From assembly GCF_024223415.1 (NCBI RefSeq), contig NZ_CP100500.1: a stretch of DNA of 64,000 nt, one strand, 5' to 3'. This stretch comes from Escherichia coli (lineage in GTDB: Bacteria; Pseudomonadota; Gammaproteobacteria; Enterobacterales; Enterobacteriaceae). Below are positions 5,401 through 8,400 of this stretch, piece after piece. A program made the position numbers. Within the stretch, counting starts at the first letter, position 1, and every line of letters starts with the position of its first letter.

Positions 5401-8400
5401 ATGCGTTTAAATATGCCGTCTTATATAAAATGATGGTCAGATTAATATGCGGATTATCTTTCTACGCAAGGAGTATTTATCTCTACTCCCGTCAATGATT
5501 GCATCTCTTTTCTCTGCTAACGGTGTCGCGGCGGCCATTGATTTATGCCAGGGATATGATATCAAAGCGAGTTGTCACGCCAGCAGGCAAAGCCTTTCAG
5601 GCATTACGCAGGTCTGGAGTATCGCCGATGGGCAATGGCTGGTTTTTTCGGATATGACCAATAATGCCAGCGGTGGGGCCGTATTTTTGCAACAAGGAGC
5701 GGAATTTACATTATCACCAGAAAATGAAACTGGAATGACTCTGTTTGCCAATAACACCGTTTCAGGAGAATATAATAACGGCGGGGCAATATTTGCTAAA
5801 GAAAACTCAACGCTGAATCTTACGGATGTTATTTTTTCTGGTAACGTCGCAGGCGGCTATGGTGGCGCAATCTATTCTTCTGGTACTAACGATACCGGTG
5901 CCATCGATTTACGTGTCACTAACGCCGTGTTTCGCAATAACATCGCTAATGACGGCAAAGGTGGTGCAATTTATACCATCAATAATGATATCTATTTAAG
6001 TGATGATGTTTTTAACAATAACCAGGCATATACATCAACAAGTTACAGTGATGGCGATGGCGGCGCAATCGATGTCACAGATAATAATAGCGACAGCAAG
6101 CATCCTTCAGGTTATACGATAATAAATAACACTGCCTTTACAAATAACACTGCCGAAGGTTATGGCGGGGCGATATATACCAATAGCGCGACGGCTCCCT
6201 ATCTTATTGATATTTCTGTTGATGACAGCTACAGCCAGAACGGAGGCGTGTTAGTCGATGAGAACAATAGCGCAGCAGGCTATGGAGATGGTCCTTCCTC
6301 TGCGGCGGGTGGCTTTATGTATCTCGGCTTAAGTGAAGTTACCTTTGATATTGCCGACGGAAAAACGCTGGTTATTGGCAATACAGAGAATGACGGAGCT
6401 GTTGACTCTATTGCTGGTACCGGGTTAATCACCAAAACAGGTTCCGGCGATCTGGTACTTAATGCAGATAACAATGACTTTACTGGTGAGATGCAGATTG
6501 AAAACGGTGAAGTTATCCTGGGCCGCAGCAACTCCCTGATGAATGTCGGCGATACTCATTGCCAGGACGATCCGCAAGACTGCTACGGTCTGACGATAGG
6601 GAGTATTGATAAGTACCAGAATCAGGCAGAGCTAAATGTTGGCTCCACCCAACAAACTTTTGTGCACTCATTGACGGGCTTTCAGAATGGTACTTTAAAT
6701 ATCGATGCTGGTGGCAATGTTACTGTTAATGAAGGCAGTTTTGCTGGCACCATCGAAGGTGCTGGTCAGCTCACCATTGCGCAAAACGGCAGCTATGTGC
6801 TGGCGGGAGCGTCGTCGATGGCGCTAACCGGCGATATAGTCGTTGATGATGGTGCGGTGCTTTCGTTGGAAGGCGATGCGGCAGATCTTGCCGCTCTCCA
6901 GGACGATCCGCAGTCGATCGTGTTAAACGGCGGTGTGCTCGATCTCTCTGATTTCTCCACCTGGCAGAGCGGTACATCATACAACGATGGCCTTGAAGTC
7001 AGCGGTAGCAGCGGAACGGTTATCGGCAGTCAGGATGTGGTAGATCTTGCAGGCGGAAACGATATGCATATCGGCGGTGACGGGAAAGATGGCGTCTACG
7101 TGGTGATCGATGCGGGTGACGGGCAGGTCCGCCTGGCAAATGACAATCAATACCTCGGCACAACGCAAATCGCCTCCGGTACGCTGATGGTGAGCGACAA
7201 CTCGCAGCTTGGAGATACCCATTACAACCGCCAGGTTATCTTTACCGATAATCAATAAGAAAGCGTGATGGAGATTACTGCCAATGTCGATACTCGCTCT
7301 ACAACGACTGAGCATGGGCGTGATATTGAAATGCGCGCCGACGGTGAAGTGGCAGTTGATGCGGGGGTAGACACGCAGTGGGGCGCACTGATGGCTGACA
7401 GCAGCGGGCAACATCAGGATGAGGGTAGCACATTGACTAAAACGGGGGCGGGTACACTGGAGCTGACCGCCAGCGGTACAACGCAGTCAGCGGTGAGAGT
7501 AGAAGAGGGCACGCTGCAAGGTGATGTTGCGGATATCTTCCCTTATGCTTCGTCGCTATGGGTCGGTGACGGGGCAACGTTCGTTACTGGCGCGGATCAG
7601 GATATTCAGTCAATTGATGCTACTTCCAGCGGCACTATCGACATCAGCAATGGTACGGTTTTGCGCCTGACCGGGCAGGATACTTCCGTCGCCCTTAATG
7701 CCTCACTGTTTAACGGCGATGGGACGCTGGTGAATGCCACCGATGGTGTGACGTTGACAGGTGAGCTTAATACCAACCTTGAAACTGACAGCTTGACTTA
7801 TCTTTCCGACGTAACAGTTAATGGCAATCTGACCAATACGACCGGTGCGGTCAGCCTGCAAAATGGCGTCGCTGGCGATACGCTGACGGTAAACGGTGAT
7901 TACACCGGCGGCGGTACGTTACTGTTCGACAGCGAATTAAACGGCGATGACTCAGCAAGCGACCAGTTGGTGTTGAACGGTAATACTGCTGGCAATACCA
8001 CGGTTGTGATTAATCCCATTACAGGGATTGGTGAGCCGACATCTACAGGCATTAAAGTGGTTGATTTCGCAGCTGATCCCACGCAGTTTCAAAACAATGC
8101 GCAGTTCAGTCTGGCAGGCAGTGGCTACGTCAACATGGGAGCGTATGACTACACGCTGGTGGAAGATAACAACGACTGGTATCTGCGATCACAAGAAGTA
8201 ACGCCGCCATCGCCACCTGATCCAGACCCGACTCCCGATCCTGATCCCACGCCGGATCCTGATCCAACACCCGACCCGGAACCTACGCCTGCTTACCAGC
8301 CGGTGTTGAATGCCAAAGTTGGCGGTTATCTCAATAACCTGCAGGCGGCAAATCAGGCGTTTATGATGGAGCGACGCGATCACGCAGGTGGCGATGGTCA

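What the first reader, a model, noticed from the sequence alone, without database searches (positions are those of the whole stretch)
8203..8289. Imperfect tandem DNA repeat encoding the Pro-Asp-Thr linker inside yfaL
Three to four ~18-bp near-repeats (gatccNgacccgacNccc) encode PDPDPTPDPDPTPDPDPTPDPEPTP between the passenger and translocator regions. Such repeats can change copy number by slippage and alter linker length in autotransporters. Here the gene is already inactivated upstream, so the repeat may be drifting.
Basis: seen in the sequence. Interest (0 to 1): 0.3.

Follow-up and report, generated by a model that had tools for sequence, protein, structure and literature searches.

The report
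Variable proline-rich spacer in YfaL adhesin
The repeat is real: it encodes a flexible proline-aspartate-threonine spacer in the E. coli surface adhesin YfaL, and spacer length differs between strains in whole-repeat steps, but this is an ordinary feature of such proteins and shows no decay in this copy.

Summary
Confirmed. Window 8219-8290 holds four head-to-tail 18-nt units encoding (PDPDPT)3-PDPEPT, preceded by TPPSPP (8201-8218). It lies in yfaL/ehaC (5447-9199, +), between the autochaperone domain and the pore helix of the beta-barrel.

The units agree at every first and second codon position. They agree at only 19% of third positions, less than codon usage predicts. The DNA repeat is therefore the footprint of a conserved peptide repeat, not a recent duplication.

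Strains do differ in length. About 65% of 5,419 complete E. coli genomes carry the window's 33-aa form and about 23% a 27-aa form. Rarer forms have 25, 29, 31, 35 and 39 aa, and 21, 23 and 37 aa occur in other assemblies. Every change inside the array is a multiple of 6 nt. Several are exact gains or losses of one unit or one GATCCT between short direct repeats, as slippage predicts. The spacer is the gene's main indel site.

The drift idea fails. The gene does carry a premature TAA (7256-7258, Gln604), but no complete genome shares it, and the repeat is base-for-base identical to intact alleles, including a K-12-like one.

Verdict: an ordinary, slowly varying in-frame coding repeat, a new example of a known kind. 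Low interest.

The parts
5447..9199 (+). yfaL/ehaC, an AIDA-I-family type Va autotransporter adhesin gene of 1250 codons, interrupted by one nonsense codon
   Evidence: Translation. Megablast finds yfaL in 5415 of 5426 complete E. coli genomes, with the same ubiG and gyrA neighbours. Pfam finds PATR, Chlam_PMP, AC_1 and the Autotransporter beta-domain.
7256..7258 (+). Premature TAA stop at codon 604 (CAA, Gln, in intact alleles)
   Evidence: This is the only difference from GPEC1446 across the gene. No complete genome matches the 61-nt context exactly; 1,916 match it at 95-99%, and all eight rows listed are at 98.4%, i.e. one mismatch.
7826..8158 (+). Autochaperone domain (Pfam AC_1, aa 794-904); the folded beta-structure continues to WYLRS at about 8191
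   Evidence: Pfam E=2.5e-18. It aligns to the AIDA-I transport unit 4MEE and to the IcsA autochaperone 3ML3. AlphaFold gives beta-strands up to model residue 128.
8073..8084 (+). CTGATCCCACGC, an exact 12-nt direct repeat of 8241-8252
   Evidence: The in-frame 168-nt deletion in strain VTB97022v joins exactly at this repeat pair.
8201..8218 (+). Non-repeated proline-rich lead-in TPPSPP
8219..8290 (+). Four 18-nt units encoding PDPDPT x3 and PDPEPT (in DNA register DPDPTP x3, DPEPTP): the imperfect tandem repeat itself
   Evidence: TRF. Codon-position analysis. Allele series.
8237..8265 (+). Two copies of GATCCTGATCC (8237-8247 and 8255-8265), the longest exact repeat in the array and the most likely slippage substrate
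   Evidence: The exact unit-2 duplication in CFS3246, the unit-2 deletion in ECA64, and the GATCCT loss (UMNF18) and gain (WP2-S18) all map here.
8312..8356 (+). Predicted alpha-helix (aa 956-970) that plugs the barrel pore
   Evidence: AlphaFold helix at model residues 167-181. It aligns to 4MEE from chain residue 149.
8411..9130 (+). Autotransporter beta-barrel domain (Pfam PF03797, aa 989-1228)
   Evidence: Pfam E=2.9e-34. 4MEE match E=8.8e-36. AlphaFold gives barrel strands.

Best explanation
The array is the coding image of an acidic, proline-rich peptide repeat, (Pro-Asp-Pro-Asp/Glu-Pro-Thr)4.

Shown:
- It forms an unstructured spacer of YfaL/EhaC between the autochaperone end of the beta-helical passenger and the alpha-helix that runs through the outer-membrane beta-barrel.
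- The units share only what the amino acids demand. Synonymous positions are scrambled, and each unit's codons are conserved position by position across deeply diverged alleles. The duplications are therefore old, and there is no ongoing homogenisation between units.
- The short sub-repeats (GAYCCN hexamers, the 11-nt GATCCTGATCC, and a 12-nt repeat shared with the autochaperone domain) occasionally cause misalignment. The population carries an in-frame allele series of 21-39 aa, changing in steps of 6, 18 or 24 nt. This makes the spacer the main indel site of the gene.
- The window carries the commonest (33-aa) form, unchanged. Its upstream nonsense mutation is private and too recent for decay.

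Inferred, not tested:
- After secretion the spacer lies just outside the barrel mouth. It acts as an extended, negatively charged stalk that sets how far the passenger stands from the membrane.
- Because only length and composition matter, it tolerates gain or loss of whole X-Pro pairs.
For: Position:
- Pfam places AC_1 at aa 794-904 and the beta-domain at aa 989-1228.
- The AIDA-I transport unit 4MEE aligns on both sides. It has about 10 residues where YfaL has about 40.
- AlphaFold has mean pLDDT 80.7, with pLDDT below 50 only at model residues 130-144 and 146-162 (aa 919-951). These sit between beta-strands and the pore helix.

Peptide-driven repeat:
- Codon positions 1 and 2 are identical in all unit pairs; position 3 matches at 19%; P=0.015 for lower-than-expected identity.
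- Phylogroup-divergent alleles keep the same unit-specific codons, although their passengers are only 76-77% identical in protein.

Length alleles:
- Two even-step samples of 60 from 5,419 genomes give 78 rows at 261 nt (33 aa), 28 at 243 nt (27 aa), 6 at 267 nt, 4 at 237 nt and 1 at 249 nt.
- 1,199 records are at least 95% identical to the 27-aa allele.
- Slippage-type products exist. CFS3246 has unit 2 duplicated exactly. UTME-3 has unit 1 deleted. ECA64 has unit 2 deleted on the 35-aa background. UMNF18 and five other porcine ETEC genomes lack one GATCCT. WP2-S18 has one extra GATCCT. WP3-W18 lacks 24 nt.
- The 27-aa allele carries a 20-nt exact repeat (P=0.002), and a 21-aa derivative lacking one unit exists.
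- Among nine full-length alleles the only indel outside the spacer is a 2-aa one at aa 545.

No decay.

Generality:
- Homologues at 30-38% identity carry their own acidic Pro-rich repeats at the same junction, up to 8 units.
- TibA is described as having a proline-rich domain at the same place (PMC3835316).
- YfaL residues 786-1250, which include the spacer, suffice for surface display of foreign passengers (PMC7138890).
Against: - The stalk function is inferred from position, composition and a low-confidence structure prediction. No experiment on the YfaL spacer was found.
- Allele frequencies come from 120 sampled rows plus identity bands, not a full count. The collection is biased towards clinical and laboratory strains.
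- The number of independent events was judged from allele structure, not mapped on a strain phylogeny.
- Single-genome variants (CFS3246, UTME-3, WP2-S18, ECA64) could in principle be assembly errors. However, exact 6- or 18-nt in-frame changes are not typical sequencing errors, and the 6-nt-loss allele recurs in six genomes.
- The codon-scrambling statistic is modest (P=0.015, or 0.07 with gene-only codon usage).
Confidence: 0.8

Rival explanations
1. Contingency locus: the repeat is a hypermutable tract whose frequent slippage switches or rapidly diversifies YfaL, as simple-sequence repeats do in phase-variable surface genes.
For: The region is a tandem repeat in a surface adhesin. At least ten length forms exist, and several are clean slippage products. 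Draft short-read assemblies very often break at this spot, which within-sample heterogeneity could cause.
Against: - Units are only 73% identical and the longest exact repeat is 11 nt.
- Every change inside the array is a multiple of 6 nt, so expression is never switched off.
- About 65% of genomes share one length, kept across alleles with 76% passenger identity.
- Sampled O157:H7 and K-12 derivatives all have the same length.
- Rare variants occur in 1-6 of 5,419 genomes.
Confidence: 0.04
2. Decaying pseudogene: with yfaL knocked out upstream, the repeat is free of selection and is drifting in sequence or copy number.
For: A premature TAA at codon 604 removes the signal peptide and half the passenger from anything translated downstream.
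Against: The array is identical to intact alleles. There is no difference from GPEC1446 in the 1.9 kb after the stop. The stop is absent from all 5,426 complete genomes, so it is very recent, or a sequencing error.
Confidence: 0.02
3. Immune-driven variation: the spacer is surface-exposed and antigenic, and host antibodies select for length and residue variants, as proposed for the proline-rich repeat regions R1 and R2 of Bordetella pertactin.
For: The spacer is predicted to be exposed and unstructured. Alleles differ in residues as well as length: D to N in S. sonnei, E to G or A, T to I or V, P to Q in O157. Pertactin alleles differ in the number of such repeats (PMC8931430).
Against: The dominant allele is shared by commensal, laboratory and pathogenic strains. 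The spacer protein sequence is no more diverged than its flanks (91-100% against 90-97% for the autochaperone domain). No expression or serological data were found, and yfaL is poorly expressed in the laboratory (own knowledge, unverified here).
Confidence: 0.1
4. Compositional coincidence: a low-complexity stretch with no significance as a repeat.
For: DNA-level similarity between units does not exceed what the peptide imposes.
Against: The exact 6-residue peptide period occurs four times. It is conserved across E. coli and occurs in the same place in distant homologues. Indels respect unit boundaries. It is the only intragenic TRF hit in 64 kb.
Confidence: 0.02

Closest known systems
Proline-rich domain of the E. 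coli autotransporter TibA (residues 627-677)
   Same: Same position: after the junction (autochaperone) region and before the membrane-embedded beta-domain (PMC3835316). Both are proline-rich and belong to the AIDA-I type of autotransporter.
   Different: The sequences differ. No PDPDPT periodicity or strain-to-strain length series was checked for TibA here. No homology between the two spacers was tested.
Pertactin repeat regions R1 and R2 (Bordetella)
   Same: Proline-rich repeats in an autotransporter passenger whose copy number differs between alleles on a slow timescale. [quoted passage not shown]
   Different: R1 and R2 are described there as loops of the beta-helix, not a spacer between the autochaperone and the pore helix. 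The repeat motifs differ, and the pertactin passenger is cleaved from its barrel.
AIDA-I transport unit (PDB 4MEE)
   Same: The flanking autochaperone and helix-plus-barrel parts are homologous (E=8.8e-36).
   Different: AIDA-I has only about 10 residues at the junction where YfaL has about 40. The YfaL spacer is an insertion relative to it.
In-frame coding minisatellites (protein-coding VNTRs) of bacterial surface proteins
   Same: Head-to-tail units whose length is a multiple of three, with copy number varying between strains and the reading frame kept.
   Different: Typing-grade VNTRs have near-identical units and vary among close relatives. Here the units are 73% identical with scrambled synonymous sites, and variation is rare. 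No paper in the library mentions both yfaL and VNTR.
Acidic Pro-rich repeats of distant AIDA-I-type homologues (P0056, P0074, P0080; Pfam Trypan_PARP hits)
   Same: Same junction, same X-Pro alternation with Asp, Glu and Thr, and 2-8 units.
   Different: Flanking domains are only 31-38% identical. Unit sequences and numbers differ. P0080 contains a 27-nt exact repeat, so its array expanded more recently.

Membership tests
YfaL/EhaC (AIDA-I-family type Va autotransporter) | C-terminal 12-stranded autotransporter beta-barrel with a pore helix | tested here: met
   Pfam PF03797 E=2.9e-34. 4MEE match E=8.8e-36. AlphaFold gives a helix followed by barrel strands.
YfaL/EhaC (AIDA-I-family type Va autotransporter) | Beta-helical passenger with an autochaperone domain | tested here: met
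   Pfam AC_1, PATR and Chlam_PMP repeats. IcsA autochaperone structures 3ML3 and 5KE1 match.
YfaL/EhaC (AIDA-I-family type Va autotransporter) | Orthology: same locus next to ubiG and gyrA, and near-identity to annotated yfaL | tested here: met
   One base differs from yfaL of GPEC1446. The gene is found in 5415 of 5426 genomes with the same neighbours.
YfaL/EhaC (AIDA-I-family type Va autotransporter) | Intact reading frame | tested here: not met
   In-frame TAA at codon 604. This copy is a recent pseudogene of the family.
Protein-coding tandem repeat with copy-number polymorphism | Head-to-tail units, in frame | tested here: met
   Four 18-nt units.
Protein-coding tandem repeat with copy-number polymorphism | Copy number differs between strains | tested here: met
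   Spacers of 25-39 aa in complete genomes, and 21, 23 and 37 aa in other assemblies.
Protein-coding tandem repeat with copy-number polymorphism | High DNA identity between units (recent duplication or homogenisation) | tested here: not met
   73% identity, with 19% at third codon positions, below the codon-usage expectation.
Phase-variable contingency locus (simple-sequence repeat) | Length changes shift the reading frame or promoter spacing to switch expression | tested here: not met
   All observed changes inside the array are multiples of 6 nt, in genes annotated as intact.
Phase-variable contingency locus (simple-sequence repeat) | Variation among very close relatives or within cultures | tested here: inconclusive
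   Sampled K-12 and O157:H7 genomes all have one length. No within-culture data are available. The unexplained assembly breaks at the spacer leave a small doubt.
Proline-rich spacer domain of autotransporters (TibA-like) | Lies between the junction (autochaperone) region and the membrane-embedded domain | tested here: met
   TibA layout from PMC3835316.
Proline-rich spacer domain of autotransporters (TibA-like) | Proline-rich and without predicted fixed structure | tested here: met
   16 of 33 residues are Pro. pLDDT is below 50 across aa 919-951 while the flanks are confident.
Proline-rich spacer domain of autotransporters (TibA-like) | Acts as an extracellular stalk affecting passenger display | not testable with these tools
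   Needs engineered length variants and surface-exposure or adhesion assays.

The most novel reading that the evidence does not exclude
Two readings are not excluded. First, the spacer's synonymous sites may be kept scrambled by selection against DNA-level repetition. That would be a natural counterpart of the codon scrambling used to stabilise synthetic repetitive genes, with fresh duplications (the 20-nt repeat in the 27-aa allele, the 27-nt repeat in P0080) being the unstable, short-lived state. Second, the common length classes (27, 33 and 35 aa) may be tuned to the thickness of each lineage's O-antigen or capsule layer, so the adhesin clears the surface coat.
Probability: 0.12. Interest if true: 0.45.

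Novelty: new member of a known kind. Interest (0 to 1): 0.2.

Why it matters
The practical value is modest.
- YfaL residues 786-1250 are used as a surface-display scaffold. The natural 21-39-aa series shows the spacer tolerates length changes and suggests lengths to try.
- The spacer is a frequent contig-break point in draft assemblies. yfaL/ehaC presence or absence calls and allele typing from short reads can therefore be wrong there.
- The locus is a clean small example of a peptide repeat kept by selection while its DNA repeat decays, with occasional slippage at leftover microhomologies.

It does not change the understanding of autotransporters.

Tried and rejected
- Searched for the window's nonsense codon in other genomes; none has it.
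- Built the two most likely slippage products of the window allele (unit 2 deleted, unit 2 duplicated) and searched for them. Neither matched exactly on the window haplotype, but the searches uncovered real rare alleles.
- Asked whether the locus is a published MLVA/VNTR marker. No paper holds both 'yfaL' and 'VNTR'. Papers on the generic E. coli MLVA loci (CVN001-CVN017) give no map positions. This stays unresolved.
- Ko et al. 2012 on the YfaL display vector is not held.
- The first MLVA literature search was too broad and gave nothing useful.
- The protein search returned mostly fragments rather than full-length alleles. It was useful only for extra spacer variants and distant homologues.
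- Considered an IS insertion as the cause of the Shigella sonnei contig breaks in the spacer. Contig ends vary on both sides and contain no IS sequence, so a coverage or assembly gap looks more likely, but this was not settled.
- The antisense ORF 8189-8383 (64 aa) over the repeat was treated as a by-product of the Pro-codon complement and not pursued.
- N24 looked like a 1-nt length variant, but its spacer is intact and the frameshift lies in the flank.

Full report
**What is there**

Window 5447-9199 (+) is yfaL/ehaC, an AIDA-I-family autotransporter adhesin gene of 1250 codons. It is flanked by nrdA upstream and by ubiG and gyrA downstream. Megablast finds the gene in 5415 of 5426 complete E. 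coli genomes.

The nearest genome is strain GPEC1446. It differs from the window by one base in the whole gene: window 7256 is T, giving TAA instead of CAA at codon 604.

A 61-nt probe centred on that base has no exact match in any complete genome. 1,916 records match it at 95-99%, and every listed row is at 98.4%, which is one mismatch. The stop is private to this sequence. It is either very recent or a sequencing error.

**The repeat**

The sequence at 8203-8289 is as described. Tandem Repeats Finder reports 8219-8289 with period 18, 3.9 copies and 75% matches. It is the only intragenic tandem array in the 64-kb window at score 50 or more.

In codon register there are four units:
- GAT CCA GAC CCG ACT CCC
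- GAT CCT GAT CCC ACG CCG
- GAT CCT GAT CCA ACA CCC
- GAC CCG GAA CCT ACG CCT

Together they encode DPDPTP x3 and DPEPTP. They are preceded by TPPSPP at 8201-8218.

All six unit pairs are identical at all 12 first and second codon positions. They match at only 0-3 of the 6 third positions, a mean of 19%. I simulated the same peptide with synonymous codons drawn from local codon usage. This gave 79.5% mean unit identity against 73.1% observed, and only 1.5% of simulations were as low.

The DNA repeat is therefore wholly accounted for by the peptide repeat, and the synonymous sites are, if anything, over-dispersed. The longest exact direct repeat in the array is 11 nt (GATCCTGATCC at 8237 and 8255).

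**Where it sits in the protein**

- On an intact allele, Pfam places the AC_1 autochaperone domain at aa 794-904 and the autotransporter beta-domain at aa 989-1228.
- The solved AIDA-I transport unit (4MEE) aligns in two blocks. One ends at WYLRSQE. The other starts at KVGGYLNN. AIDA-I has about 10 residues between the blocks where YfaL has about 40.
- An AlphaFold model of aa 790-1250 has mean pLDDT 80.7. It gives beta-strands up to WYLRSQE, pLDDT below 50 only for aa 919-951, a helix at aa 956-970, and then the barrel.

The repeat thus encodes an unstructured, acidic spacer that is 48% proline.

**Comparison across strains**

A 261-nt probe spanning the spacer matches 5,419 genomes. Two even-step samples of 60 records each were taken, one ordered by similarity to the window allele and one by similarity to a 27-aa allele.

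| Span of match | Spacer length | Rows (of 120) |
|---|---|---|
| 261 nt | 33 aa | 78 |
| 243 nt | 27 aa | 28 |
| 267 nt | 35 aa | 6 |
| 237 nt | 25 aa | 4 |
| 249 nt | 29 aa | 1 |
| 260 nt | 33 aa; flank frameshift (N24) | 1 |
| partial | 168-nt deletion (VTB97022v) | 2 (same record in both samples) |

In addition, 1,199 records are at least 95% identical to the 27-aa allele.

Reading representative alleles and searching with synthetic slippage products gave the following series.

| Spacer | Strain(s) | Change relative to the 33-aa form |
|---|---|---|
| 33 aa | window, K-12-like, O157:H7, B2-type alleles | reference (four units) |
| 39 aa | CFS3246 | exact duplication of unit 2 |
| 27 aa | UTME-3 | exact loss of unit 1 |
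| 29 aa | ECA64 | loss of unit 2 on the 35-aa background |
| 31 aa | UMNF18 and five other porcine ETEC | loss of one GATCCT |
| 35 aa | WP2-S18 | gain of one GATCCT |
| 35 aa | FDAARGOS_1281, SC516, GD33 | a different 6-nt gain in unit 4 |
| 25 aa | WP3-W18 | 24-nt loss |
| 27 aa | common class | PPDPDPDPTPDPDPTPDPIP |

The protein collection adds spacers of 21, 23 and 37 aa.

Every change inside the array is a multiple of 6 nt, so the X-Pro alternation is kept. All these genes are annotated as intact.

Strain VTB97022v has an in-frame 168-nt deletion. It joins an exact 12-nt repeat, CTGATCCCACGC, at 8073-8084 in the autochaperone domain to its copy at 8241-8252 in unit 2.

Among nine full-length alleles whose passengers are as little as 76% identical, the only indel outside the spacer is a 2-aa one at aa 545. 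The spacer is the gene's main indel site.

**How fast it changes**

Change is slow.
- The four-unit form, with the same unit-specific codons, is kept between alleles that differ by about 17% in DNA overall.
- There is therefore no homogenisation between units and no frequent turnover.
- Rare variants occur in 1-6 of 5,419 genomes.
- The 27-aa allele carries a 20-nt exact repeat (P=0.002 against its codon-usage null), and a 21-aa derivative lacking exactly one unit exists.
- A distant homologue (P0080, 8 units) has a 27-nt exact repeat.

The picture is occasional unit duplication or loss by misalignment at short repeats, followed by synonymous divergence. It is not a contingency locus.

**The drift idea**

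This is rejected. The window's array is base-for-base identical to the arrays of GPEC1446 and a K-12-like strain, both with intact genes. The 1.9 kb downstream of the stop shows no change relative to GPEC1446.

**Function (inferred)**

After secretion the spacer should lie just outside the barrel mouth and act as an extended, negatively charged stalk.

Three observations support this.
- Its position is the same as the proline-rich domain that separates the junction region from the membrane domain in TibA (PMC3835316).
- Homologues of only 30-38% identity carry their own acidic Pro-rich repeats of 2-8 units at the same junction.
- YfaL 786-1250, spacer included, displays foreign proteins on the surface (PMC7138890).

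Proline-rich repeats whose copy number varies slowly between alleles are also known in pertactin (PMC8931430). No experiment on the YfaL spacer itself was found.

**Verdict**

- This is a new, documented example of a known kind of feature.
- Interest is low.

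Noticed in passing
window 10455-10457 (gyrA, 10209-12836 +): gyrA codon 83 is TTG (Leu), where the nearest genome GPEC1446 has TCG (Ser). This is the classical S83L quinolone-resistance substitution. Codon 87 is wild type.
   Followed up: partly
yfaL spacer in draft assemblies; loci L017-L023, proteins P0012-P0148: Hundreds of partial YfaL fragments from short-read assemblies of E. coli, Shigella sonnei, S. flexneri and S. boydii end or begin in or beside the spacer, at variable positions on both sides. Two clusters have 303 and 519 members. This looks like a systematic assembly or coverage break. The cause is unresolved, and an IS insertion in S. sonnei is not excluded.
   Followed up: partly
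window 8219-8265: Five GATC (Dam) sites fall within 47 nt, and one overlaps a BamHI site. This is the densest GATC cluster in the 64-kb window and a by-product of GAT-CCN (Asp-Pro) codons.
   Followed up: partly
L021-L023 (Shigella sonnei yfaL fragments): The S. sonnei allele has NPNPT instead of DPDPT in unit 1 (two Asp to Asn changes). Its 1.9-kb contig starts at a fixed point, YfaL aa ~303, which suggests the gene is disrupted there as well.
   Followed up: no
window 2964-4841 (+), inside nrdA (2466-4751, -): A 625-codon ATG-initiated ORF runs antisense through most of nrdA. That is unusually long for a chance antisense ORF.
   Followed up: no
window 2289-2457 and 44573-44927: Two intergenic tandem arrays (period 87 x1.9 copies and period 113 x3.1 copies, 95-96% matches). 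They are probably REP/BIME-type elements.
   Followed up: no
L001 717-1414 (GPEC1446), corresponding to window ~5200-5300: The nearest genome has an IS1A copy between ypaB and yfaL that the window lacks. IS1 and IS5 insertions within yfaL occur in other complete genomes (hits H14, H24, H39).
   Followed up: no
L029 (strain N24) and L008 (strain VTB97022v): Other ways yfaL is damaged in nature: a 1-nt frameshift next to the spacer in N24, annotated as a pseudogene. VTB97022v has a 168-nt in-frame deletion that removes the end of the autochaperone domain but is still annotated as intact.
   Followed up: partly
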